Source: Escherichia coli (GTDB lineage Bacteria > Pseudomonadota > Gammaproteobacteria > Enterobacterales > Enterobacteriaceae). From it: a stretch of 14,769 bases of DNA. The translations under genes were made by a program, and so were the position numbers. Location: the NCBI GenBank assembly GCA_005397905.1, contig GCA_005397905.1_4318.1; one strand, given 5' to 3'. Under the pieces are notes generated by a model. That model saw only the letters and a list, made by a program, of their open reading frames with translations, made no database searches and had not been told where the DNA came from. Shown one piece after another: positions 1 through 13,727 of this stretch (positions are counted from its first letter, which is position 1; each line of letters starts with the position of its first letter).

Positions 1-193
1 TTACCTTTAATTGCTTTGCCATATTTGCCTTTTTGCCGAAGAAATCAAGGACAATTTCCAGCCTCGCGCGTAACCCTGCCCTTACCTCATCTTTTAAAAC
101 GTAGTAGCCTGATGGTCGTTTACGTTGCTTTTTGTCTTCGGTGCGGACTGTCCCGTTATTACCGTTAATGGTTCGCTTGTCTACTGCATTCAT
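1..193 (-). CDS. hypothetical protein, N-terminal fragment (gene continues beyond the left edge)
   Basis: Minus-strand ATG at 193-191 with GAGGTG Shine-Dalgarno 5 nt upstream (rc of 199-204); frame stays open to position 1 (64 codons, MNAVDKRTINGNNGTVRTEDKKQRKRPSGYY...). Not in the ORF track because it runs off the window. Confidence 0.45.
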   Translation of the reverse strand, partial: MNAVDKRTINGNNGTVRTEDKKQRKRPSGYYVLKDEVRAGLRARLEIVLDFFGKKANMAKQLKV

Positions 194-206
194 TTCATCA
201 CCTCAA

Positions 207-249
207 TAGCATTTTTTGTTAAAAGTCATTCCGATTTGATGGTAGTATT
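207..249 (+). promoter_or_regulatory. TAGCAC-type promoter-like element, variant TAGCAT-N3-TTGTTA, -10-like TAGTAT
   Basis: TAGCAT 207-212, TTGTTA 216-221, -10-like hexamer 243-248; upstream of the helicase ATG at 295. Its -10 overlaps the -10 of the divergent leftward promoter. Confidence 0.4.
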
Positions 250-275
250 GTACTCAATTAAACGCTACAAGACAA
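247..275 (-). promoter_or_regulatory. canonical sigma70-like promoter (TTGTCT-17-TACAAT) reading leftward
   Basis: On the minus strand: -35 TTGTCT (plus 275-270), 17-bp spacer, -10 TACAAT (plus 252-247); lies about 50 nt upstream of the leftward ATG at 193. Confidence 0.5.
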
Positions 276-294
276 TTTTTATAGGAATTTAGAT

Positions 295-2289
295 ATGTTG
301 CCTATCGAGAAGCTGGTTGCAAACTTCGATAAAGAAAGAATAAAACAGATTCAGAAAGATTATCAGTTTGGTGAGATAACTCCTTACGAATTCCAGTGCG
401 TAACATTTGATGCAATCGGAAAGGCTATTGGAAAGTACGAGGCACCATTTATCGCTGACCTTTCAGTATCTGCGGGTAAGACAATCATTCTCGCTATGAT
501 TGGAAAGCGTATGGAACAATTGGGATTGCCTTATATGGTTCTTTCTCGCCAGTCAGAAATTATCAGCCAGAACTCAGAGGAGCTTCGCAACTTCGGCATC
601 CGTAATAGCGTCTATTGCGCTGGCCTTAACGTTAAATCAGTTTACTACCCAACCATAGTTGCTAGCGAGGGTACGGCTGCTAATGGTTTGTTTAAGGGGC
701 TTGGTGACTATGTTCCGGCGGTTATCGCAATCGATGAATGTCACATGGTAGATCACATGGATATCGTGGAAGCTGAAGAGAACGAAGAAACATTTGAGCA
801 AATGAGCACAAAGAAAGGTGAGATGGTTTTCAAGGATGGAATTAACACTGGATTAATTGGCACTGGTCGCGCGCAGTACACACTAATCATTACCGAGATG
901 AAACGTCGCTGTCGTGAGAAGTATGGTCGTGAGCTAAGGATTTTTGGCCTTACTGGCAGCCCATATCGTAACAACGATCACATCGTAGTTAGTAACCCAA
1001 ACATCCGTGGATTCTGGCGGAAGACGGTAATTCAAGTACCAACCAATTACCTGGTTGACTTGGGGTTTGTTGTGCCTACTGTTTACGGCGAGGTAGGCGA
1101 TTTGGGTTACGATCTTAGTGAGTTTGTTCCCGATGGGAGCGATGGCGTGAAGGACTTTGGCAAGAAAGAAATGGATGCAATGGAAGAGAAAATCCACCAA
1201 AGCCAATCCATGACGCAAAAGATTATGCAATTTGCTGCAAAGTTCATGGATACTCGTAACGCGGCTCTTGTGACATGTTCTGGTAAGCGTCACTGCGAGG
1301 AAGCGGCAGCGGCGCTTCCTGATGGTGTGACATGGGCTATAGTAACTGACTCTACAGGTGAGAAAAAGCGCCGTGAGATTCTGGCTGATGCATATGAAGG
1401 TAAGTATAAATTCATATTTCAGATAGGTTGCCTTACAACCGGCGTGAACGTCCCGCCGTGGGACACATCAATCATTCTTCGCAAGGTTGGTAGCATCACG
1501 TTACTGATTCAGCTTTTGGGTCGAGGTATGCGAATTCTTAAGAAGAAGCATAAAGAAATGGGAATGATTAAGGAAGATCACGTGGTACTAGACTTCGCTG
1601 GCACCCTTGATGATATGGCGGAATTGTACTTTGACCCAATCATAGAGGAGGTGCAGGACCAGAAGTTTAAATCATCCCGCAAAGGCGGCGATGAGCCGAG
1701 GGTTTGTCCAGTATGCAGCTATGAGAACTCTCCGTTCGCCCGTCGATGCAATAACGTAATTGATGGAAAGCGTTGCGAACATTTTTTTACATTTCGCTTG
1801 TGTGAAGATATAGAGGACCCGCAGACAAAAGTTATTATTAAGAAAGGTTGTGGTGAGAAGAATGATATTGCTGCTAAAAACTGTCGATGCTGCGGCGAGA
1901 TGCTAATAGACCCGAACGCAAAGCTATCTGGGAAAATGTATCGTAAAGGCGACTGGTTGCGAGTCTATGACTTTAAGATTGGATTAACAAAGAATCAATC
2001 AGGGATTGTTGCCTCATACGAGGTCATGGCCCATAGTGGGGATAGGTTCCGAGCCTATGAGACGTTTTTTCCAGAGTCAGACCATCGCGTTTGCTCTGTA
2101 AAATGGAAATCATTTTGCTCTGCTCACATAGAGAACAGGACTGAGGCTTTTAGAATTGGCAGATTGCGTAATGCTAAGATGATTATGACTAATGCTCATC
2201 TTTTTCGAGCGCCATTAAGGATTACACACCGCAAGAACCAGAAGTCTCAAGATATTATCGCAAACAAATCATTTACTATGGAAGATTGA
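295..2289 (+). CDS. SF2 (DExH-box) DNA helicase with C-terminal Cys-rich zinc-ribbon-like region
   Basis: 664-aa ORF. Motif I SAGKT (DLSVSAGKTIILAMIG), motif II DECH (VIAIDECHMV), motif III-like LTGSP, motif VI QLLGRGMR; C-terminal Cys clusters CPVCSYEN...RRC and GCGEKNDIAAKNCRCCGE. Confidence 0.85.
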   Translation: MLPIEKLVANFDKERIKQIQKDYQFGEITPYEFQCVTFDAIGKAIGKYEAPFIADLSVSAGKTIILAMIGKRMEQLGLPYMVLSRQSEIISQNSEELRNFGIRNSVYCAGLNVKSVYYPTIVASEGTAANGLFKGLGDYVPAVIAIDECHMVDHMDIVEAEENEETFEQMSTKKGEMVFKDGINTGLIGTGRAQYTLIITEMKRRCREKYGRELRIFGLTGSPYRNNDHIVVSNPNIRGFWRKTVIQVPTNYLVDLGFVVPTVYGEVGDLGYDLSEFVPDGSDGVKDFGKKEMDAMEEKIHQSQSMTQKIMQFAAKFMDTRNAALVTCSGKRHCEEAAAALPDGVTWAIVTDSTGEKKRREILADAYEGKYKFIFQIGCLTTGVNVPPWDTSIILRKVGSITLLIQLLGRGMRILKKKHKEMGMIKEDHVVLDFAGTLDDMAELYFDPIIEEVQDQKFKSSRKGGDEPRVCPVCSYENSPFARRCNNVIDGKRCEHFFTFRLCEDIEDPQTKVIIKKGCGEKNDIAAKNCRCCGEMLIDPNAKLSGKMYRKGDWLRVYDFKIGLTKNQSGIVASYEVMAHSGDRFRAYETFFPESDHRVCSVKWKSFCSAHIENRTEAFRIGRLRNAKMIMTNAHLFRAPLRITHRKNQKSQDIIANKSFTMED

Positions 2290-2290
2290 C

Positions 2291-2710
2291 ATGCAAATTA
2301 CAGATAAAGAAGATTACATTGAGTTTTACCCAGGCCCGGTTAAGTCATGCCCTAAAGAGGATAACGAACAAATATTTTGCTCTGATTGGGTTAAGTATAA
2401 CTACCCGGAGATGGTGTTCTTCCACTGCGTGAATGAGGGCAAGAAGACCATTGGTCAAGCAAGAAAGGACCAGGCTAAGGGGCTTCTCAAAGGCGTATCA
2501 GACTGCATGTTTCTTATTCCTGAATCTATCCGAGGAAAATACCCTTTTGGGGCCATAGAGCTAAAGAGGGCTGGGAAGACTCAGGCAAGCACAGTCAGCG
2601 ATGAACAAAAGTCCTTCCTAAAAAGCGTAAGGGAATCAGGAGGATTCGCTGCTGTAGCTTACGGTCGCGAGGGTTTTCTGGCAGCATTCAAACAAATGAT
2701 TTCAAAATAG
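2291..2710 (+). CDS. VRR-NUC domain (PD-(D/E)xK) nuclease
   Basis: 139-aa ORF starting 2 nt after the helicase stop; ...SDCMFLIPE...GAIELKRAGKTQ... fits the D/E...ExK core of VRR-NUC. Helicase plus VRR-NUC adjacency is a common phage module. Confidence 0.7.
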   Translation: MQITDKEDYIEFYPGPVKSCPKEDNEQIFCSDWVKYNYPEMVFFHCVNEGKKTIGQARKDQAKGLLKGVSDCMFLIPESIRGKYPFGAIELKRAGKTQASTVSDEQKSFLKSVRESGGFAAVAYGREGFLAAFKQMISK

Positions 2711-2750
2711 CACGAATTGCTAAAGACGTATCGGTGAAGTGGTGTATTAT
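2708..2750 (+). promoter_or_regulatory. TAGCAC-type promoter-like element
   Basis: TAGCAC 2708-2713 (its TAG is the stop codon of the VRR-NUC gene), TTGCTA 2717-2722, 22-bp spacer, TATTAT 2745-2750. The -10 sits in the loop of a 7-bp dyad (2735-2741 / 2751-2757). Confidence 0.55.
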
Positions 2751-2783
2751 CACTTCATCGAAAACAAACTGGGAGATAAAAAA

Positions 2784-3202: not shown

Positions 3203-3399
3203 TTACTGCTACATGTGTAAAAACGAACGGCTCGTTCACTTTATTTAATGAGTATGAATTCAAGATAGACCCGATAAATGACCAGGTTGAAATAGTTAGC
3301 GATGACGGATTTGCATGGAAGTTACATAATGAATTTGATGGTTACTACGGGTGTAATGATTCGAAAGGCAAGCATGTAAGTTTTCTTGTTTATGAGTAA
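3199..3399 (+). CDS. hypothetical protein (66 aa)
   Basis: ATG at 3199 overlaps the upstream stop (ATGA) with GGAGG 8 nt upstream; the track start at 3181 is TTG. Stop TAA directly precedes a TAGCAC element. Confidence 0.5.
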   Translation: MITATCVKTNGSFTLFNEYEFKIDPINDQVEIVSDDGFAWKLHNEFDGYYGCNDSKGKHVSFLVYE

Positions 3400-3400
3400 A

Positions 3401-3443
3401 TAGCACTTTTTGTTAAAACTCCAATCCATGGATTGATTATATT
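3401..3443 (+). promoter_or_regulatory. TAGCAC-type promoter-like element
   Basis: TAGCAC 3401-3406, TTGTTA 3410-3415, 22-bp spacer holding a perfect 12-bp palindrome AATCCATGGATT (3423-3434), TATATT 3438-3443. Confidence 0.55.
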
Positions 3444-4176: not shown

Positions 4177-5313
4177 ATGGCAACTGCAAAGATTACCAAC
4201 GAACAACTTCGTGAAGAACTGGCAAATGGCATGACAAACAAAGAAATCGCAGAGAAATACGGAATGAACATTCGCAATGTTGAATTGCGTCGTAGTAAAT
4301 TGGCAAAATCCGGCGAGCTTCATGGAAACCCTGGGATTAAGAAGCTAGTTCCTGACGGCTATTTGGTCAAAGGGACTTCAACGATGATTGATGCGGAAGG
4401 TAACGAGAAGATCCGGTGGGTTAAGACCTCAATTGATAATGAGCGCCTTGAGGTTCTTATGGAGCAGGCTCGAGAAGCATTTTGCTCTGAGTTGCCAAAG
4501 GCAGTTCCATCTGAATCACCTAATGTTAACTTTGACGATAACACGCTTGCGATGTATCCGGTTTTTGATTTACACATTGGAGCAATGGCACACAAACATG
4601 AGTGCGGCGAAAACTACGACACAGCGACAGCCGAGAAGGTAATGAATGGATTCTTTGATTACGCCGTAGATAAGGCCCCAAACTCAAAGAATGCTGTATT
4701 GGTATTGGGTGGCGATTTCCTACATTACGATTCCCTGGAGGCTAAAACCCCGGCCTCAGGCCATATCTTAGACTCTGACAGTCGTTACGCTAAGATTGTT
4801 TATGTTGCAATCCGTTCAGTACGACGTGCAATTTCTCGAATGATGGAAAAGCATCAAGTCATTGATATTAAAGTAATAAGCGGAAATCACGACGAGGCTG
4901 GAATGGTTTGGCTCCGCGCTGCACTTGCTGCATTTTATGAATATGAGCCTCGCGTAAATGTTGATGTTAGCCCAGCTGCAATGATGATGACCAGCTTTGG
5001 AACGACGCTTATTGGATACACTCACGGGCACCAAATGCGGAAAGCCGATACTCGACTAACTGTTATGGCAACTGATTTTCGTAAGTTATTTGGTCAAAGT
5101 GAGTATGTTTACACACATAGTGGCCACTGGCATTCGCAGAAGATTACAGAAACAAACTTGGGAATTGATGAGGTTCATGGGCAGCTGGGAAGTCCTGATG
5201 CGTACTCCGCAAATGGCGGCTGGCGCTCTCAACGTCAAGCGGCAGTTATTGTCTACCATAAAGAATTCGGTGAAGTTGGGCGATTCATTTGTCGCCCTAA
5301 AATGTTTAGCTAA
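4177..5313 (+). CDS. N-terminal helix-turn-helix domain fused to a calcineurin-like metallophosphoesterase (Mre11/SbcD-type fold)
   Basis: 378 aa. HTH-like MTNKEIAEKYGMNIRNVELRRSKL at the N-terminus; phosphoesterase motifs in order: DLH (VFDLHIGAMAH), GDxxxxD (VLGGDFLHYD), GNHDE, THGH, GHWH. AAGGA RBS upstream. Confidence 0.8.
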   Translation: MATAKITNEQLREELANGMTNKEIAEKYGMNIRNVELRRSKLAKSGELHGNPGIKKLVPDGYLVKGTSTMIDAEGNEKIRWVKTSIDNERLEVLMEQAREAFCSELPKAVPSESPNVNFDDNTLAMYPVFDLHIGAMAHKHECGENYDTATAEKVMNGFFDYAVDKAPNSKNAVLVLGGDFLHYDSLEAKTPASGHILDSDSRYAKIVYVAIRSVRRAISRMMEKHQVIDIKVISGNHDEAGMVWLRAALAAFYEYEPRVNVDVSPAAMMMTSFGTTLIGYTHGHQMRKADTRLTVMATDFRKLFGQSEYVYTHSGHWHSQKITETNLGIDEVHGQLGSPDAYSANGGWRSQRQAAVIVYHKEFGEVGRFICRPKMFS

Positions 5314-5356
5314 TAGCGCTTTTTGTTAAAAAACCCCCAGGTTACTGGGGTATAAT
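5314..5356 (+). promoter_or_regulatory. TAGCAC-type promoter-like element (variant TAGCGC)
   Basis: TAGCGC 5314-5319 directly after the stop TAA 5311-5313; TTGTTA 5323-5328; hairpin CCCCAG-GTTA-CTGGGG (5335-5350) in the spacer; TATAAT 5351-5356. Confidence 0.55.
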
Positions 5357-5425: not shown

Positions 5426-5980
5426 ATGACCAAATTGTTTATACTGAATGGGCCAGCTGGGGTCGGCAAAGATACAATTGCTGACGTCATGGTTAGTTCT
5501 GGCGCTTGCTGTGAGAAGGTTTCTTTTAAGTCACCCGTGTTTGATGTGGCTAAGGGTATGTTATCAAGCGATGAATTTGATTGGTTTATTGAAAACTACA
5601 ACAATAGAGACGAGAAAGATAAACCTCAGAAAATTCTCGGAGGTAAAACTATTCGAGAGTTTATGATATGGATTAGCGAATCAGTAATGAAACCTGTTTT
5701 TGGTAATGATGTCTTCGGCAGGAGATTGGCTAGTTCACTTGGTGATGGTTGCTATATTTGTGCTGACGGTGGATTTGCTAGCGAGATTGAGCCACTGATC
5801 GACGCTGGTGTTAAGGTCACGTTAATCAGGTTGCATAGGGCAGGGTACACATTTTATGGCGATAGTCGCTCATATATTCACGGGGTGTGTGAAAGAGAGA
5901 TTGATGTTCATGTTGTTGATGGTGATATTAATGGAACATCAGCATTGGTAAGGCACGTAATAAATAGCACGAATTGCTAA
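5426..5980 (+). CDS. deoxynucleoside monophosphate kinase-like P-loop kinase
   Basis: 184 aa; Walker A LNGPAGVGKDT; the N-terminal stretch KLFILNGPAGVGKDTIADVMVS resembles the N-terminus of the T4 gene 1 dNMP kinase as I recall it. GGAGA RBS. Protein ends ...NSTNC with the stop TAA supplied by a TTGCTAA element. Confidence 0.65.
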   Translation: MTKLFILNGPAGVGKDTIADVMVSSGACCEKVSFKSPVFDVAKGMLSSDEFDWFIENYNNRDEKDKPQKILGGKTIREFMIWISESVMKPVFGNDVFGRRLASSLGDGCYICADGGFASEIEPLIDAGVKVTLIRLHRAGYTFYGDSRSYIHGVCEREIDVHVVDGDINGTSALVRHVINSTNC

Positions 5981-6007
5981 AGATAATAGTAAAAACTGGG
6001 TTATCAT
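5965..6007 (+). promoter_or_regulatory. TAGCAC-type promoter-like element
   Basis: TAGCAC 5965-5970 inside the 3' end of the kinase gene; TTGCTA 5974-5979 (its TAA is the kinase stop); 22-bp spacer; TATCAT 6002-6007; leader CATCGAAACGAG...AACGAGGA. Confidence 0.55.
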
Positions 6008-7774: not shown

Positions 7775-9358
7775 TTACCCCAGCAGTCGCGGATTAATGT
7801 AAACCTTATCACCAATCAGGCAGGTGTAGTTTTTCTCATCAAGCATCGGAAGTAAATGGTCTTTAATCTTAGCCATTACGCCAGCCTGACCCTCAAACGG
7901 CCTAACCTTGCGTGCTGATTCATATAGTGAACGAAGTCCTACAACGCCCTTACTGTTCTTTCCTTGCTTAATCAATATGTCAATTAACTTGTTCATCTCT
8001 GCATTATCGCCAGCGTGACCAGCCGAACTAGCAGCAGAAAGGTAAGTTTTACTTTGTTCGTAAAACATGATAATTGCCTCTTGCATTGTCTCTAGGTCAA
8101 TTTGCCTTGACTTCAATGGCCGCTCATTATTCTTGCATGACCAGTTTCTTATTGTATGAAGAATTGCCGCCATTCGAATAACTTGCTTATCCATCTTGCC
8201 AAGAGCGCCACGCAGCATAGAGTGAGAGTATTTACCTCCATCCGCAAGGTGCGGCTCCATATCCTGGCGTGCTAGATTAAGATATCGCATAGCTGATTCT
8301 GAAATAGATAAATTAACTTGTGTTTCGTTCATAATGTTGTGAATCATTCTAAAGTAATCAGCTTTCAATTCGCCATCAACCGGTTCGTATGTCGACTCAC
8401 CTTTTTCATTAATAAAAACGCGATTTCCAATCATGGGGCGCTCCCTAACCAGCCAGAATCGCTCAGATACACCTATACCACGAGCACCAGCCTCCATAAT
8501 TGCATTGATTGTTTCATCCTGAGCTATTACAGCTATTGCGCCAAGCGCGGTAAACATCAAGTTGTTGTCAGCATTGGCGCGAGATATTGATATATTTCCA
8601 GAATCCCACGCCTTAAGAACTAACTCACTGTTTGTTTTCTTGCTGCCATCTCCGTAGGTCATCCCAAGCAATGAGTTAATTGCCGTTGCTTCGTCTGATA
8701 TTACCGCAAAGTTACCCTGTCGACTGTTTATTCGAGCCAGACCTTCAGGTGTTGTATCAGATACCGGAAAGACAATATCACACAGCTTTTCTAACTTCTC
8801 TTCTAAATCCTCTTTCTCCTCAAACAATGACGCCATTTCGGATGGCGACTTCTCCTGCTTCATCTCTTTCGCCAGCGCTGATAGCTTGGCCATAATCTTT
8901 TTTCTTTCACGCTTTCGCTGGTCATTGATTCGCTCAACCTCGGCTACCATTGGAGCTATTGCGAGTGAGTTAATGGCTGACTTACCAGTCGATGGTGGCT
9001 GGCTGGTTACTACGTACAGTGAGGTTGGTTGCTGCGTTCCGTGATACTCAACAGTAAAACGCCCTAGCATGGCAGCGGAAATACACCCCAGGAAATGCAT
9101 GTATGCGGAAGACTCTGGGAACTGAACAGATCGAGCGATATTGGATGAGAGTTTGCCAACAACATCAATATCATTTCCGAGTGAGATTACGGGATACTTG
9201 TCATTTGCAGCATCAATCTCCACTGGTGCTTTCCAGAATGATTGAGACTGGCGATAGCCATTTGCATTAATGGCGACTCGCAGTGGTGGGAGGTTGTCTG
9301 CGGCAGCAATTGCCATAACCTGTTCAACAGATAGTTTATCTTCGTTGAAATCAAACAT
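7775..9358 (-). CDS. P-loop NTPase of unknown function (527 aa), RecA/DnaB-like Walker A
   Basis: Walker A-like VVTSQPPSTGKSAI (about residues 115-128), Walker B-like FAVISDE (about 217-223), a highly charged predicted helix between them; GGAGAG RBS. N-terminal 43 aa and C-terminal 55 aa are homologous to the 181-aa ORF at 12482-13027. Confidence 0.8.
   Translation of the reverse strand: MFDFNEDKLSVEQVMAIAAADNLPPLRVAINANGYRQSQSFWKAPVEIDAANDKYPVISLGNDIDVVGKLSSNIARSVQFPESSAYMHFLGCISAAMLGRFTVEYHGTQQPTSLYVVTSQPPSTGKSAINSLAIAPMVAEVERINDQRKRERKKIMAKLSALAKEMKQEKSPSEMASLFEEKEDLEEKLEKLCDIVFPVSDTTPEGLARINSRQGNFAVISDEATAINSLLGMTYGDGSKKTNSELVLKAWDSGNISISRANADNNLMFTALGAIAVIAQDETINAIMEAGARGIGVSERFWLVRERPMIGNRVFINEKGESTYEPVDGELKADYFRMIHNIMNETQVNLSISESAMRYLNLARQDMEPHLADGGKYSHSMLRGALGKMDKQVIRMAAILHTIRNWSCKNNERPLKSRQIDLETMQEAIIMFYEQSKTYLSAASSAGHAGDNAEMNKLIDILIKQGKNSKGVVGLRSLYESARKVRPFEGQAGVMAKIKDHLLPMLDEKNYTCLIGDKVYINPRLLG
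9233..9262. repeat. 30-nt perfect inverted repeat, copy A (inside the NTPase gene)
   Basis: rc of 9233-9262 = AATGGCTATCGCCAGTCTCAATCATTCTGG, identical to 12584-12613, while flanking synonymous sites have diverged. Confidence 0.9.
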
Positions 9359-9388
9359 TACTTCTCTCCGTATTGTTTTTGAGAGGCC

Positions 9389-9431
9389 ATTATATCAACG
9401 GCCTCTTATAAAGCATTATCAATTTGTGCTA
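9389..9431 (-). promoter_or_regulatory. TAGCAC-type promoter-like element
   Basis: Minus strand reads TAGCAC-AAA-TTGATA, 22 bp, TATAAT (plus 9431-9389); the -10 lies in the loop of dyad AGAGGCC / GGCCTCT (9382-9388 / 9400-9406). Confidence 0.55.
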
Positions 9432-9544
9432 TTAATTACTCTTAATCCACTTTATGCACATCCATGCTCCGGAAACATAGAGCGCTAGCTTTGCTAACTC
9501 AGCCGCTAAGTGTATAAATAAAGCAAAATCAGAAATAAGCTCAG

Positions 9545-10170: not shown

Positions 10171-10213
10171 AATATACATGAAAAGCCACGAAGGGTTTTA
10201 GCAATTAGTGCTA
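10171..10213 (-). promoter_or_regulatory. TAGCAC-type promoter-like element
   Basis: Minus strand TAGCAC-TAA-TTGCTA (plus 10213-10199), 22 bp, TATATT (plus 10176-10171). Confidence 0.55.
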
Positions 10214-10362
10214 TTTCGTGCTTTTTCTATGGCCTTGAGCATAATCTCATGACTCTCAAGCAAGTCATCGCGGAACCAATCACCGCAAGGCCAGCCTTTT
10301 CCGCTGTAGGTGCTGATTACCTCAAGATCGAAATAATTTATCTCAGATGGTAGAAGCATCAT
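10198..10362 (-). CDS. hypothetical small protein (54 aa)
   Basis: Minus-strand ATG at 10362 overlapping the upstream stop (ATGA), GAGGTG RBS; MMLLPSEINYFDLEVISTYSGKGWPCGDWFRDDLLESHEIMLKAIEKARNSTNC; ends in the same ...NSTNC-stop inside the TAGCAC element as the kinase gene. Confidence 0.45.
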   Translation of the reverse strand: MMLLPSEINYFDLEVISTYSGKGWPCGDWFRDDLLESHEIMLKAIEKARNSTNC

Positions 10363-10816: not shown

Positions 10817-10859
10817 CTGTAGCCTCGCCAGCAACAGATGTCTTTAGCAAAAAGTGCTA
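10817..10859 (-). promoter_or_regulatory. TAGCAC-type promoter-like element (weak -10)
   Basis: Minus strand TAGCAC-TTT-TTGCTA (plus 10859-10845); the -10 at the expected distance is only TACAGT/CTACAG-like. Confidence 0.4.
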
Positions 10860-10861
10860 CT

Positions 10862-11287: not shown

Positions 11288-11331
11288 ATAATAGCAAATC
11301 ACAGTCTTTTGATTATTAGCAAAAAGTGCTA
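11288..11331 (-). promoter_or_regulatory. TAGCAC-type promoter-like element
   Basis: Minus strand TAGCAC-TTT-TTGCTA (plus 11331-11317), 23 bp, TATTAT (plus 11293-11288). Confidence 0.5.
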
Positions 11332-11357
11332 TTCGTTAGATTTATGTATTGTTGCAG

Positions 11358-11891: not shown

Positions 11892-11920
11892 TTGATAACA
11901 TGTAACCGCGATGATATTAT
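11892..11920 (+). promoter_or_regulatory. canonical sigma70 promoter with extended -10 (TTGATA-17-TGaTATTAT)
   Basis: -35 TTGATA 11892-11897, 17-bp spacer, TG at 11912-11913, -10 TATTAT 11915-11920; about 40 nt upstream of the ATG at 11961 (CAGGAG RBS). Confidence 0.65.
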
Positions 11921-11960
11921 GCACCCATCTTAACGAAGGAAACCAATCAGGAGTATATCT

Positions 11961-12482
11961 ATGTCAAATCGCATTCAACCAGTAAGCCTTGGTGATGTTA
12001 TCCGCTACATGGCTAAGCAGGCGCTTAAGGCCGACAATCGGACTTTCCATGTTCCAATCCACCTGATAGCTCGCCAGGTTTACGGGCTAACGTCTGATGA
12101 TATTGGTCGAATCAGCGCTGAGGATCTCGAGAGTGGCGGCAAATACAGTTTGGCAAAGTTGAAGGCTTCATATGTCTCTAACACAGTTGCCAGGATGCCA
12201 GAGATTCAGGAGGCGAACGTTCGGGCTAAGCTGTCAATCAAGGACGGAGACTTTGGGGATGATGTTGATGTTCGATGCGCATACATCACCTTGGTCGATG
12301 GGGCAATACAGACAGGAAAGAGAGTGATGGCCAACAACCAGGTAGCCGATAAGGCTGTAAGCGACTTTAAGGCTAGAATCCTCAAGCTGATGCCATCAGT
12401 GACTGAGTTTGAAGGTGATGAGATTACCGGAGCCATCAAAGCAATTAAGATGTACCAGGAAATGATTAAGGAGGCAAAATAA
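11961..12482 (+). CDS. hypothetical protein (173 aa), first gene behind the canonical promoter
   Basis: ATG with CAGGAG RBS; no recognisable motif. Confidence 0.65.
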   Translation: MSNRIQPVSLGDVIRYMAKQALKADNRTFHVPIHLIARQVYGLTSDDIGRISAEDLESGGKYSLAKLKASYVSNTVARMPEIQEANVRAKLSIKDGDFGDDVDVRCAYITLVDGAIQTGKRVMANNQVADKAVSDFKARILKLMPSVTEFEGDEITGAIKAIKMYQEMIKEAK

Positions 12483-13027
12483 TGGGGATGTTTGATTTTA
12501 ACGAAGATAAGCTAACTAATGATGAGATTATGAAGATTGCCATGCGGGATGGACTTCCTCCGCTACGGGTTGCAATCAACGCTAATGGCTATCGCCAGTC
12601 TCAATCATTCTGGTGTAGTGTTGAGGAGTTGCTCAGCGCAAAGCTCAACAGCAAGTCTGGCGTAGTTATGTGTAAGATTCACGGACAGAGCAGGAATGGC
12701 AAGGGGGTTGTCGGAATTCGATCAACATATGAAGCGCTGAGAAAGGTCAAGCCATTCGCCGGACTCAACGGAGTCATGCATGACCTGAAAAATAACATCC
12801 TGCCATCGTTACAGGACGCAGGAATCATCTGCTTAATCGGGGATAAGATTTACGTGCATCCATACATCGTTGGCATGCATGCGATAGAAGTTGAAGAGTG
12901 GTGCGACACCTGGGCTGTTGATGAGCATGCTAGTAGACTACCATACCACTTACGGTACGACGAAGATGAGGTAGAGAAGGCGATTGAGTTCTACCGGAAA
13001 GCTAAATCACTCCTGACCGGTAAATAG
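12482..13027 (+). CDS. hypothetical protein (181 aa), truncated paralog of the 527-aa NTPase lacking the P-loop core
   Basis: MFDFNEDKL...LPPLRVAINANGYRQSQSFW matches the NTPase N-terminus (20 consecutive residues identical); KGVVGIRSTYEALRKVKPF...CLIGDKIYVHP is about 55% identical to the NTPase C-terminus; no Walker motifs. AAGGAGG RBS; stop TAG is part of a TAGCAC element. Confidence 0.75.
   Translation: MGMFDFNEDKLTNDEIMKIAMRDGLPPLRVAINANGYRQSQSFWCSVEELLSAKLNSKSGVVMCKIHGQSRNGKGVVGIRSTYEALRKVKPFAGLNGVMHDLKNNILPSLQDAGIICLIGDKIYVHPYIVGMHAIEVEEWCDTWAVDEHASRLPYHLRYDEDEVEKAIEFYRKAKSLLTGK
12584..12613. repeat. 30-nt perfect inverted repeat, copy B (inside the paralog gene)
   Basis: AATGGCTATCGCCAGTCTCAATCATTCTGG at 12584-12613, in inverted orientation relative to 9233-9262. 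Confidence 0.9.
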
Positions 13028-13067
13028 CACTAATTGCTAAACAATAAATCGGGTAGTCAGCTATGAT
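13025..13067 (+). promoter_or_regulatory. TAGCAC-type promoter-like element
   Basis: TAGCAC 13025-13030 (TAG is the stop of the paralog gene), TTGCTA 13034-13039, 22 bp, TATGAT 13062-13067. Confidence 0.5.
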
Positions 13068-13098
13068 TACCATATCAACCAAACGAGAGGGAAGAAAG

Positions 13099-13523: not shown

Positions 13524-13657
13524 TTTACATCCACACTTACTACACTGGCAAGTTCAATAGCGTTAAGCACGTTCGGGTTCACGATACCTACGATAGCGCA
13601 AAGGCTCAGTGGTTGGTTCTTGGCGGCGATATTAATTCATATAGAATCGCTGAGTAG
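13520..13657 (+). CDS. hypothetical small protein (45 aa)
   Basis: ATG overlapping the upstream stop (ATGA); MIYIHTYYTGKFNSVKHVRVHDTYDSAKAQWLVLGGDINSYRIAE; stop TAG is the TAG of a TAGCAC element. Confidence 0.4.
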   Translation: MIYIHTYYTGKFNSVKHVRVHDTYDSAKAQWLVLGGDINSYRIAE

Positions 13658-13697
13658 CACGAATTGTTAAAACAGCATTGGGGTAATTTGTTATAAT
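13655..13697 (+). promoter_or_regulatory. TAGCAC-type promoter-like element
   Basis: TAGCAC 13655-13660, TTGTTA 13664-13669, 22 bp, TATAAT 13692-13697 within dyad TGGGGTAAT/ATTGCCCCA; leader CATCGAAACTAACGAGGAAG. Confidence 0.55.
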
Positions 13698-13727
13698 TGC
13701 CCCATCGAAACTAACGAGGAAGCAGAA

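What the first reader, a model, noticed from the sequence alone, without database searches (positions are those of the whole stretch)
194..294. Back-to-back promoters of two different classes with overlapping -10 hexamers
The leftward canonical promoter (minus-strand -35 at 275-270, -10 at 252-247) and the rightward TAGCAT-type element (-10-like 243-248) place their -10 hexamers on the same 10 bp. RNA polymerase should not be able to occupy both at once, which would make a compact switch between leftward and rightward transcription.
Basis: seen in the sequence. Interest (0 to 1): 0.45.

Follow-up and report, generated by a model that had tools for sequence, protein, structure and literature searches.

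The report
Two-way promoter in a T1-like phage
The 101-bp gap between a T1/Rtp-like phage's regulator gene and its helicase gene holds two opposite promoters whose -10 boxes overlap, an ordinary host-type one for the regulator and one of the phage's own motif-dependent class for the helicase, so it probably works as a self-limiting early-to-later switch of a kind already known in bacteria.

Summary
On the minus strand TTGTCT(275-270)-17 bp-TACAAT(252-247) is the best sigma-70 match in the gap. On the plus strand 243-248 reads TAGTAT (not TAGCAT), preceded by TG. The two hexamers share 247-248.

Alone this is not beyond chance; comparison makes it real. The window is an Rtp-like Drexlerviridae phage. 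In 61 distinct versions of this gap the two opposed -10 hexamers are always present, and their 7-bp core is 97% conserved against 47% for the neighbouring spacer.

"Two classes" is also right. The rightward promoter belongs to a phage-wide class: an 18-nt dyad motif, ATAGCA-N5-TGYTAAA (here 206-223), then 19-21 nt, then a -10 box, with no -35. It occurs 11 times in the window and roughly 20-25 times each in Rtp and T1.

The dyad centre lies about -41.5 from the predicted rightward start, a class II activator position, and about +27 in the regulator's own leader. The leftward gene encodes a Cro-like HTH protein.

Best reading (inferred): host polymerase first makes the regulator. The regulator then recruits polymerase rightward and so excludes leftward initiation.

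This is a new member of the known bidirectional-promoter kind. No transcription data were found, so activity and switching remain untested.

The parts
1..193 (-). 5' part of the leftward gene for the putative transcriptional regulator (Rtp52 / T1 gp23 homologue). The start codon is ATG at 193-191, and the gene runs off the window's left end.
   Evidence: It is annotated 'transcriptional regulator' in SU57, EC3a, Rtp and T1. Four orthologues give sub-threshold Pfam P22_Cro HTH hits. The AlphaFold core (residues 35-105, pLDDT 84-92) best matches all-alpha Cro proteins.
201..204 (-). Shine-Dalgarno of the regulator gene (GAGG on the minus strand), 7 nt before the ATG.
   Evidence: Read directly from the sequence. 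The CCTC/CTCC block is kept in all relatives.
206..223 (+). 18-nt dyad motif ATAGCATTTTTTGTTAAA. The arms are TAGCA at 207-211 and TGTTA at 217-221, with the centre at 214. This is the upstream element of the rightward promoter and the probable binding site of the regulator.
   Evidence: There are 5 copies in the window at 3 mismatches or fewer against 0.05 expected, and 11 with the pattern ATAGCA-N5-TGYTAAA. It is present in all 61 versions of this intergenic region. The predicted position is -50 to -33 of the rightward start and +18 to +35 of the leftward start.
240..248 (+). Rightward -10 region: TG (240-241), G, then TAGTAT (243-248), 19 nt after the motif. The predicted start is at 255/256.
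   Evidence: Spacing of 19-20 nt at this locus holds in every lineage, and 38 of 47 class sites have exactly 20 nt. Natural variants (G245T gives TATTAT; G242T) never touch T243, A244, T248 or the TG.
246..251 (+). Alternative rightward -10, TATTGT. It is positionally homologous to the TATTAT of other genera if no 3-bp insertion is assumed, but it lies 22 nt from the motif.
   Evidence: It is less likely because it falls outside the 19-21 nt window of the class.
247..252 (-). Leftward -10 hexamer TACAAT. It shares 247-248 with the rightward hexamer. The predicted start is at 240 (an A on the minus strand).
   Evidence: It is invariant in the Rtp-like clade. In most other lineages sampled the equivalent is a perfect TATAAT overlapping the rightward hexamer by 5 bp; three lineage groups have 5-of-6 variants (TATACT, TATCAT, CATAAT).
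270..275 (-). Leftward -35 hexamer TTGTCT (4 of 6), 17 bp from the -10. It lies inside the helicase leader.
   Evidence: It is invariant in the clade. The EC3a record annotates a minus-strand promoter over the equivalent of 237-285.
283..297 (+). Helicase Shine-Dalgarno AGGA (283-286) and start codon ATG (295-297). The gene spans 295-2289.
2707..2724 (+). Another member of the dyad-motif promoter class (context for the class assignment). The other members start at 3400, 5313, 5964, 13024 and 13654 on the plus strand, and at 9415, 10197, 10843 and 11315 on the minus strand.
   Evidence: All 11 point the same way as the local genes, and each has a -10-like hexamer 19-21 nt downstream.

Best explanation
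Region 194-294 is the divergent control region between the regulator (and primase) unit and the helicase unit of an Rtp/T1-like lytic phage. It holds two interdigitated promoters on opposite strands around a shared -10 core.

The leftward promoter (TTGTCT-17-TACAAT, start near 240) is an ordinary sigma-70 promoter. Host polymerase can use it unaided, and it expresses a Cro-like HTH regulator.

The rightward promoter (start near 255/256) belongs to the phage's main promoter class. That class has an 18-nt dyad motif, 19-21 nt of spacer and a -10 box, with no usable -35. The dyad centre sits about -41.5 from the start, so the class most likely needs a dimeric activator bound there, and the regulator is the best candidate.

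The two polymerase footprints overlap by about 55 bp, so only one orientation can be occupied at a time. Once the regulator accumulates it recruits polymerase rightward. By competition, perhaps helped by its position at +18 to +35 of its own leader, it lowers its own synthesis. The result is a compact early-to-later switch with negative feedback.

Shown here: the sequence elements, their family-wide conservation, the existence and geometry of the class, and the HTH fold.

Inferred: the start sites, activation rather than repression, the identity of the binding protein, and competition.
For: - Elements and coordinates.
- The window is an Rtp-like Drexlerviridae phage, with the regulator and helicase genes divergent in every relative.
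- Each unit has no other place for a promoter than this 101-bp gap.
- All 61 distinct versions keep motif, 19/20 nt, then two opposed -10 hexamers. Outside the Rtp-like clade the core is TANNATA, that is TATTAT rightward and TATAAT leftward with a 5-bp overlap, which is the common 18-bp class of bidirectional promoters. Variation falls only on the weakly constrained middle positions (PMC12825309).
- Core 97% conserved against 47% for the spacer. Gap 96-99% identical against 85-92% for flanking coding DNA.
- Class properties: 11 sites in the window and roughly 20-25 each in Rtp and T1, against 0-7 in shuffles. The window's 11 are all co-oriented with genes. 38 of 47 have exactly 20 nt to the -10. 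The best -35 score is only 1-3 of 6 in 38 of 44.
- Regulator is a Cro-like HTH.
- Experimental precedent: an activator site at -40.5 on one arm of a bidirectional promoter activates that arm and blocks the other through polymerase competition. Opposing polymerases cannot bind together.
- From memory, not checked here because the paper is not held: the Rtp genome paper (Wietzorrek et al. 2006) proposed Rtp52 as a regulator with about 10 conserved inverted repeats upstream of genes.
Against: - No start-site, expression or binding data exist for either promoter.
- The leftward promoter is only a 9-of-12 match, and such matches are not enriched in the window.
- In this clade the rightward hexamer is weak (4 of 6) and sits 19 nt, not the modal 20 nt, from the motif. 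A second hexamer (TATTGT) is equally good by score.
- The predicted starts are 15-16 bp apart, which is not one of the common 10, 18 or 23 bp spacings.
- The HTH assignment is below Pfam's threshold and the Foldseek E-values are weak.
- Class promoters also precede genes in the small-ORF regions at the genome ends. If those are the early genes, a strict order of 'regulator first, then everything else' is unproven.
Confidence: 0.55

Rival explanations
1. The regulator is a repressor, not an activator. The dyad-motif promoters are used by host polymerase alone, helped by A/T-rich DNA or TGn. The Cro-like protein binds over -50 to -33 to shut them down. At this locus it would silence the helicase arm and thereby free its own divergent promoter.
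For: The closest folds and profiles are Cro proteins, which are classic repressors. The site overlaps the place where a -35 would be contacted. About a third of the Rtp class sites listed have TGn before the hexamer by my reading, and this locus has TGn plus a 4-of-6 TTAAAA at 18 bp.
Against: The spacing between motif and -10 is rigid: 38 of 47 sites have exactly 20 nt. That is expected for stereospecific contact with polymerase and is not needed for occlusion. The class lacks a -35. The class drives replication, structural and lysis genes all over the genome, and a lytic phage has no evident reason to repress them all with one protein.
Confidence: 0.15
2. The dyad motif is read by a host protein, most plausibly Lrp, and not by the phage regulator. 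The phage would then tie nearly all its promoters, including this two-way one, to a host nutritional sensor.
For: The arms and spacing fit the E. coli Lrp consensus yAGhAwATTwTdCTr. TAGCA-N5-TGCTA matches both arms exactly, and whole sites match 11-13 of 15 positions (consensus as quoted in PMC5554404). The motif is invariant across phages of Escherichia, Klebsiella, Shigella and others, as expected for a conserved host factor.
Against: The conserved block is 18 nt and much more specific than the Lrp consensus: an invariant C after TAGCA where Lrp prefers A or T, and fixed flanks A...AAA. The phage regulator is just as universally conserved in the family (825 phage records), so host range cannot separate the two ideas. 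I know of no report that T1-like phages need lrp (own knowledge).
Confidence: 0.1
3. The promoters overlap but there is no switch. The two genes simply need promoters in a 101-bp gap, the near-palindromic -10 core is an economical solution, and both arms fire at rates too low to interfere with each other.
For: All five natural bidirectional promoters tested in E. coli had basal activity too low for polymerase competition (abstract of PMC12825309). Both hexamers in this clade are imperfect (4 of 6 and 5 of 6).
Against: The same paper shows that competition appears once one arm is substantially activated. Phage promoters are typically strongly used. In most lineages the leftward hexamer is a perfect TATAAT. 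The dyad site sits exactly where activation would be expected.
Confidence: 0.15

Closest known systems
Prokaryotic bidirectional promoters with a shared pseudo-symmetrical -10 element (Warman, Grainger and colleagues; PacrA/acrR, PsoxS/soxR)
   Same: The -10 hexamers on opposite strands overlap. The divergent starts lie either side of the shared element. Opposing polymerases exclude each other. An activator placed at -40.5 of one arm activates that arm and represses the other. Outside the Rtp-like clade the phage core TATTATA gives the commonest 18-bp geometry.
   Different: In this window the hexamers overlap by 2 bp, not 5, giving predicted starts 15-16 bp apart, which is not one of the common spacings. 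The activated arm has no -35 and belongs to a phage-specific class. The presumed activator is encoded by the other arm. Nothing has been measured.
Divergently transcribed, self-limiting activators (LysR-type regulators and their targets; MerR/SoxR-type divergent promoters); own knowledge
   Same: The regulator gene and its target are transcribed divergently from overlapping promoters. One bound protein turns the target on and its own gene down.
   Different: The protein here is a small Cro-like HTH, not a LysR or MerR fold. The site lies upstream of the target -10 at about -41.5, not between -35 and -10 as for MerR. There is a single 18-nt site rather than LysR's two sites.
Phage-encoded activators of -35-less promoters: Mu Mor and C (dyad centred near -43.5), lambda cII, T4 MotA (own knowledge, not tested here)
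   Same: Host polymerase is redirected to a set of phage promoters that have a -10 but no -35. A phage DNA-binding protein does this from a fixed position overlapping the -35 region.
   Different: The protein family and motif are different. Here one motif class covers roughly 20-25 promoters of apparently all functional classes rather than one temporal class. The activator's own promoter is fused back-to-back with one of its targets.
Putative Rtp52 regulon of phage Rtp (Wietzorrek et al. 2006, J Bacteriol 188:1419; recalled from the abstract, paper not held)
   Same: The motif family is the same: conserved inverted repeats upstream of genes, attributed to the HTH protein Rtp52. The window's leftward gene is its homologue.
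   Different: As far as I recall, that work listed about 10 repeats. It did not describe the fixed 20-nt spacing to a -10, the absence of a -35, or the overlap with the regulator's own promoter. This could not be verified.

Membership tests
Bidirectional promoter (shared or overlapping -10 element, Warman/Grainger sense) | The -10 hexamers on opposite strands overlap or share bases. | tested here: met
   TAGTAT at 243-248 (+) and TACAAT at 252-247 (-) share 247-248. In all 61 versions there is a 5-bp overlap (TANNATA) or, in the Rtp-like clade, a 2-bp overlap.
Bidirectional promoter (shared or overlapping -10 element, Warman/Grainger sense) | Divergent transcription start sites lie close together either side of the element (commonly 18, also 10 or 23 bp apart). 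| not testable with these tools
   Only predicted starts are available: 240 and 255/256, which is 15-16 bp apart here and 18 bp in most relatives. No start-site data were found.
Bidirectional promoter (shared or overlapping -10 element, Warman/Grainger sense) | RNA is made in both directions from the element. | not testable with these tools
   Indirect only. Each divergent gene unit has no other upstream space for a promoter.
Sigma-70 -35/-10 promoter (leftward arm) | A -10 hexamer with A at -11 and T at -7, plus a -35 hexamer at 16-18 bp. | tested here: met
   TTGTCT-17-TACAAT, 9 of 12. In relatives the hexamers are TATAAT with TTGTCA, TTGACT or TTGAGT at 16-17 bp in many lineages, and weaker -35 hexamers in others.
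Sigma-70 -35/-10 promoter (leftward arm) | The match exceeds chance. | tested here: inconclusive
   As a single-sequence match it does not: 24 sites found against 34.4 expected. By conservation it does: core 97% against spacer 47%, and the hexamer is invariant in the clade.
Drexlerviridae dyad-motif promoter class (putative Rtp52/gp23-dependent) | The 18-nt motif ATAGCA-N5-TGYTAAA is present upstream and co-oriented with the gene. | tested here: met
   206-223 has 0 mismatches to the pattern and is conserved in all 61 versions.
Drexlerviridae dyad-motif promoter class (putative Rtp52/gp23-dependent) | A -10-like hexamer lies 19-21 nt after the motif (mode 20). | tested here: met
   TAGTAT starts 19 nt after the motif. 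The spacing at this locus is 19 or 20 nt in all lineages, and 38 of 47 class sites have 20 nt.
Drexlerviridae dyad-motif promoter class (putative Rtp52/gp23-dependent) | No functional -35 hexamer at 16-18 bp. | tested here: inconclusive
   Across the class the best score is 1-3 of 6 in 38 of 44 sites. At this locus TTAAAA (4 of 6) lies at 18 bp and TGn is present, so some unaided activity cannot be excluded.
Drexlerviridae dyad-motif promoter class (putative Rtp52/gp23-dependent) | The motif is bound by the phage HTH regulator. | not testable with these tools
   Support is circumstantial only: a dyad site, a Cro-like HTH protein, and a gene adjacent to a site.
Class II activator-dependent promoter (activator centred near -41.5) | The activator site is centred about 41.5 bp upstream of the start and overlaps the -35 region. 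| tested here: met
   The dyad centre at 214 against a predicted start at 255/256 gives -41/-42. The start is predicted, not measured.
Class II activator-dependent promoter (activator centred near -41.5) | Transcription depends on the activator contacting polymerase. | not testable with these tools
   This needs in vitro transcription or reporter assays.
Lrp binding site | Match to yAGhAwATTwTdCTr. | tested here: inconclusive
   13 of 15 at this site and 11-13 of 15 for other class sites. The arms match exactly in TGCTA sites, while the centre and the invariant C do not. Binding was not tested.

The most novel reading that the evidence does not exclude
Almost every promoter of T1-family phages, including this two-way regulator/helicase promoter, is wired to the host feast/famine sensor Lrp. 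The dyad TAGCA-N5-TGCTA fits both arms and the spacing of the Lrp consensus. A strictly lytic phage would then set its whole transcription programme, and the direction of this switch, by host nutritional state, with the phage HTH protein modulating or competing at the same sites.
Probability: 0.08. Interest if true: 0.75.

Novelty: new member of a known kind. Interest (0 to 1): 0.4.

Why it matters
T1-like phages (Drexlerviridae) are common, are used in therapy collections and are notorious laboratory contaminants, yet how they programme host RNA polymerase is essentially unknown.

This locus offers a compact and testable entry point. It holds one unaided promoter for a small regulator, fused to a member of the promoter class that heads most transcription units.

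If the model holds, it would be a natural, family-wide conserved example of what was recently shown with engineered E. coli promoters: an activator represses a divergent gene purely through polymerase orientation competition. Here the repressed gene would be the activator's own.

The model also predicts that a 100-bp fragment plus one small protein is a portable two-output switch.

Tried and rejected
- **TAGCAT as a repeated -10 type.** Rejected: the hexamer is not enriched (9 against 10.7 expected) and 243-248 reads TAGTAT. The recurring element is the 18-nt upstream motif.
- **An operator-like repeat inside 194-294.** Only 6-nt chance pairs were found, apart from the dyad within the motif.
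- **TTGTTA/TTGCTA of the motif as a -35.** Rejected: it lies 21-22 bp from the -10 in all lineages.
- **RNA structure in either leader.** None found: z +0.3 and +1.4. There were no Rfam matches in the window.
- **Published start-site or expression data, or any description of the motif.** Nothing relevant turned up. The SU57 and T1-like taxonomy papers only ran generic promoter predictors. The Rtp genome paper is not held.
- **Separating 'phage regulator' from 'host factor' by host range.** Uninformative: every homologue is in phages of Enterobacteriaceae.
- **The SU57 record's BPROM minus-strand promoter (equivalent to 216-248).** Judged unconvincing beside the conserved TACAAT/TATAAT core.
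- **Solved-structure and fold searches on the regulator.** They gave only weak Cro/cI-type matches. These are enough to call an HTH domain but not to tell activator from repressor.

Full report
**What the window is**

BLAST against phage genomes shows the window is an Rtp-like coliphage of the family Drexlerviridae. It is about 89% identical to vB_EcoD_SU57 and 87.5% to Rtp over the first 3 kb.

The finding's coordinates, 194-294, are exactly the gap between two divergent genes. The leftward gene is annotated 'transcriptional regulator' (Rtp52 / T1 gp23 homologue; ATG at 193-191 on the minus strand) and is followed by the primase. The rightward gene is the helicase (ATG at 295). The same regulator-helicase arrangement with an 84-102 bp gap is present in every Drexlerviridae genus sampled.

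**Checking the observation**

The minus strand reads TTGTCT (275-270), 17 bp, TACAAT (252-247). The consensus scan reports it as a 9-of-12 match.

The plus strand at 243-248 reads TAGTAT, not TAGCAT. It is preceded by TG at 240-241, the extended -10 form. The literal TAGCAT is at 207-212.

The two hexamers share 247-248 and together span 243-252. Listing every hexamer with A at position 2 and T at position 6 in the gap shows these are the best on each strand. A second rightward candidate, TATTGT at 246-251, ties on score.

On one sequence alone this proves nothing. Promoter-like matches are fewer in the window than in shuffles (24 against 34.4), and TAGCAT is not enriched.

**What 'TAGCAT-type' really is**

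Aligning the gap from distant relatives showed a block, ATAGCAYTTTTTGYTAAA, conserved right next to the regulator's ribosome-binding site in all of them.

The same 18-mer occurs 5 times in the window at 3 mismatches or fewer (0.05 expected). With the degenerate pattern ATAGCA-N5-TGYTAAA it occurs 11 times in the window and roughly 20-25 times each in the complete Rtp and T1 genomes (23 and 25 raw hits at 2 mismatches or fewer), against 0-7 in shuffles.

- All 11 window copies point the same way as the local genes.
- Each is followed by a -10-like hexamer (TATAGT, TATAAT, TATATT and similar). The spacing is exactly 20 nt in 38 of 47 sites and 19-21 nt in nearly all the rest.
- There is no usable -35: the best score is 1-3 of 6 in 38 of 44 sites.
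- The motif contains the dyad TAGCA-N5-TGCTA. With the start 7 nt after the hexamer, the dyad centre falls at about -41.5, the classic position of a class II activator.

The defining element of the second class, however, is this upstream dyad, not a TAGCAT -10.

At our locus the motif is 206-223, and TAGTAT begins 19 nt later. TATTGT would be 22 nt away, outside the class range.

**Are the two overlapping promoters real?**

Using an alignment of 12 regulator proteins, I fetched 80 loci from viral contigs. With the window these gave 61 distinct versions of the gap.

Every version has the motif, then 19 or 20 nt, then a rightward -10-like hexamer, and a leftward -10 hexamer overlapping it.

Outside the Rtp-like clade the shared core is TANNATA, usually TATTATA. 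That reads TATTAT rightward and a perfect TATAAT leftward, with a 5-bp overlap. This is the geometry that gives the commonest 18-bp start-to-start spacing of bacterial bidirectional promoters (PMC12825309).

- The rare variants (TAGTATA, TATGATA, TATTATG) change only weakly constrained positions.
- In 17 diverse lineages the 7-bp core is 97% conserved, against 47% for the preceding spacer and 57% downstream.
- Leftward -35 hexamers at 16-17 bp range from good (TTGTCA, TTGACT) to poor.

The Rtp-like clade, including the window, carries 3 extra base pairs (TAKTAT-TGTA). This shifts the leftward hexamer so that the overlap is 2 bp and the predicted starts (240 and 255/256) are 15-16 bp apart.

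Within this clade the gap is 96-99% identical while the flanking coding DNA is 85-92%. The few variable positions (230, 232, 238, 242, 245, 269) avoid every key promoter base, and G245T turns TAGTAT into the better TATTAT.

The EC3a GenBank record independently annotates a minus-strand promoter over the equivalent of 237-285.

Neither gene unit has any other upstream space for a promoter.

**The regulator**

Four divergent orthologues give consistent but sub-threshold Pfam hits to the P22 Cro HTH family. A profile search of solved structures finds P22 Cro and Xfaso-1 Cro weakly.

An AlphaFold model has a confident helical core (residues 35-105). Its best structural matches are all-alpha Cro proteins (Xfaso-1, N15, P22), with target TM-scores of 0.64-0.71 but weak E-values.

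A small dimeric HTH protein fits a 5-N5-5 dyad site. From memory, the Rtp genome paper proposed Rtp52 as a regulator acting on about 10 conserved inverted repeats upstream of genes. I could not read that paper here.

**How it most likely works**

Host polymerase alone can use the leftward -35/-10 promoter, making the regulator.

The regulator then binds 206-223. That is -50 to -33 of the rightward promoter and +18 to +35 of its own transcript. From there it recruits polymerase in the rightward orientation.

An open complex covers roughly -55 to +20 (established knowledge). The two footprints would therefore share about 220-275, and only one orientation can be occupied at a time.

Recent experiments with E. 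coli bidirectional promoters show this behaviour directly. Opposing polymerases cannot bind together. A CRP site placed at -40.5 of one arm activates that arm and blocks the other. The block is due to polymerase competition rather than to the bound factor.

Applied here, this gives an early-to-later switch with built-in negative feedback on the regulator (and primase) unit.

The sequence anatomy, conservation, class geometry and HTH fold are shown. The start sites, activation, the identity of the binding protein and competition are inferred.

**Rivals**

- *The regulator represses the class.* Its Cro-like fold would suit this. The rigid 20-nt spacing, the missing -35 and the fact that the class heads genes of all functions argue against it.
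- *A host protein reads the dyad.* The arms and spacing fit the E. coli Lrp consensus yAGhAwATTwTdCTr at 11-13 of 15 positions. However, the motif is far more specific than that consensus. Host range cannot discriminate, because all 825 phage records with the regulator infect Enterobacteriaceae.
- *The overlap is only economy of space and there is no interference.* Natural bidirectional promoters were found to have basal activity too low for competition. Strong activation, which is what the dyad implies, changes that.

**What led nowhere**

Neither leader folds better than shuffles. There are no Rfam matches. No extra repeats lie in the gap. No published start-site data or motif description were found in the held library.

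**Verdict**

This is a new, family-wide conserved member of the known bidirectional-promoter kind, joined to a phage promoter class that is only sketchily described. Interest is moderate.

Noticed in passing
window 2707-2724, 3400-3417, 5313-5330, 5964-5981, 13024-13041, 13654-13671 (+); 9415-9432, 10197-10214, 10843-10860, 11315-11332 (-): Ten further copies of the dyad motif ATAGCA-N5-TGYTAAA. Each is co-oriented with the genes and followed 19-21 nt later by a -10-like hexamer. This is apparently the phage's main promoter class, and it is also abundant in Rtp and T1.
   Followed up: partly
window 2725-2770, 13042-13075, 13672-13705 (+); 9370-9414 (-); 5331-5356 (+): In about half of the class promoters a strong hairpin with site-specific stem sequence encloses or directly precedes the -10 hexamer (-10 to -18 kcal/mol, z -2.6 to -5.1). 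The regulator/helicase locus has none. The T1 record annotates some equivalents as rho-independent terminators, so these may be fused terminator-promoter units. The purpose is unexplained.
   Followed up: partly
downstream of class -10 hexamers, e.g. window 2751-2775, 13698-13715; minus-strand sites 10197 and 11315: Many class promoters share a conserved start and leader segment (TTACCYCATCGAAACGAAAC). Conservation therefore extends into the transcribed region. The helicase leader (TACTCAATTAAACGCTAC) is a diverged version.
   Followed up: no
window 11892-11920 (+), in the gap 11902-11960: This is the best sigma-70 match in the window (TTGATA-17-TATTAT with TG, 10 of 12). It has no dyad motif and lies just upstream of the ORF at 11961, in a second divergent region. 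It is a likely unaided early promoter near the position equivalent to the Rtp genome ends.
   Followed up: no
L020 (Rtp) 33762-33779; L021 (T1) 103-120(-), 8362-8379, 15069-15086(-), 18833-18850(-), 34902-34919: Some motif copies lack a -10 at the class spacing or point against the local genes. One example lies between the primase and tail-fibre genes, next to a terminator. The motif may therefore have a second role, or these copies may be decayed or antisense promoters.
   Followed up: no
L007/L024 (phage IME542) gap compared with window 224-294: IME542 has a regulator 99% identical to Rtp's. Immediately after the dyad motif, however, its gap switches to the sequence type of phage TR2. This suggests a recombination junction at the conserved motif.
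   Followed up: no
L001 (SU57) 3216-3248, equivalent to window 216-248, minus strand: The SU57 record's BPROM-predicted promoter for the regulator gene does not coincide with the conserved TACAAT/TATAAT core. The EC3a record's prediction (equivalent to 237-285) does coincide. Public annotations of this locus disagree.
   Followed up: yes
L021 (T1) 35930-35995: In T1 the regulator gene is followed by an annotated terminator and a further class promoter in front of the primase gene. There the regulator looks monocistronic and the primase activator-dependent. No such site was seen between the two genes in Rtp.
   Followed up: no
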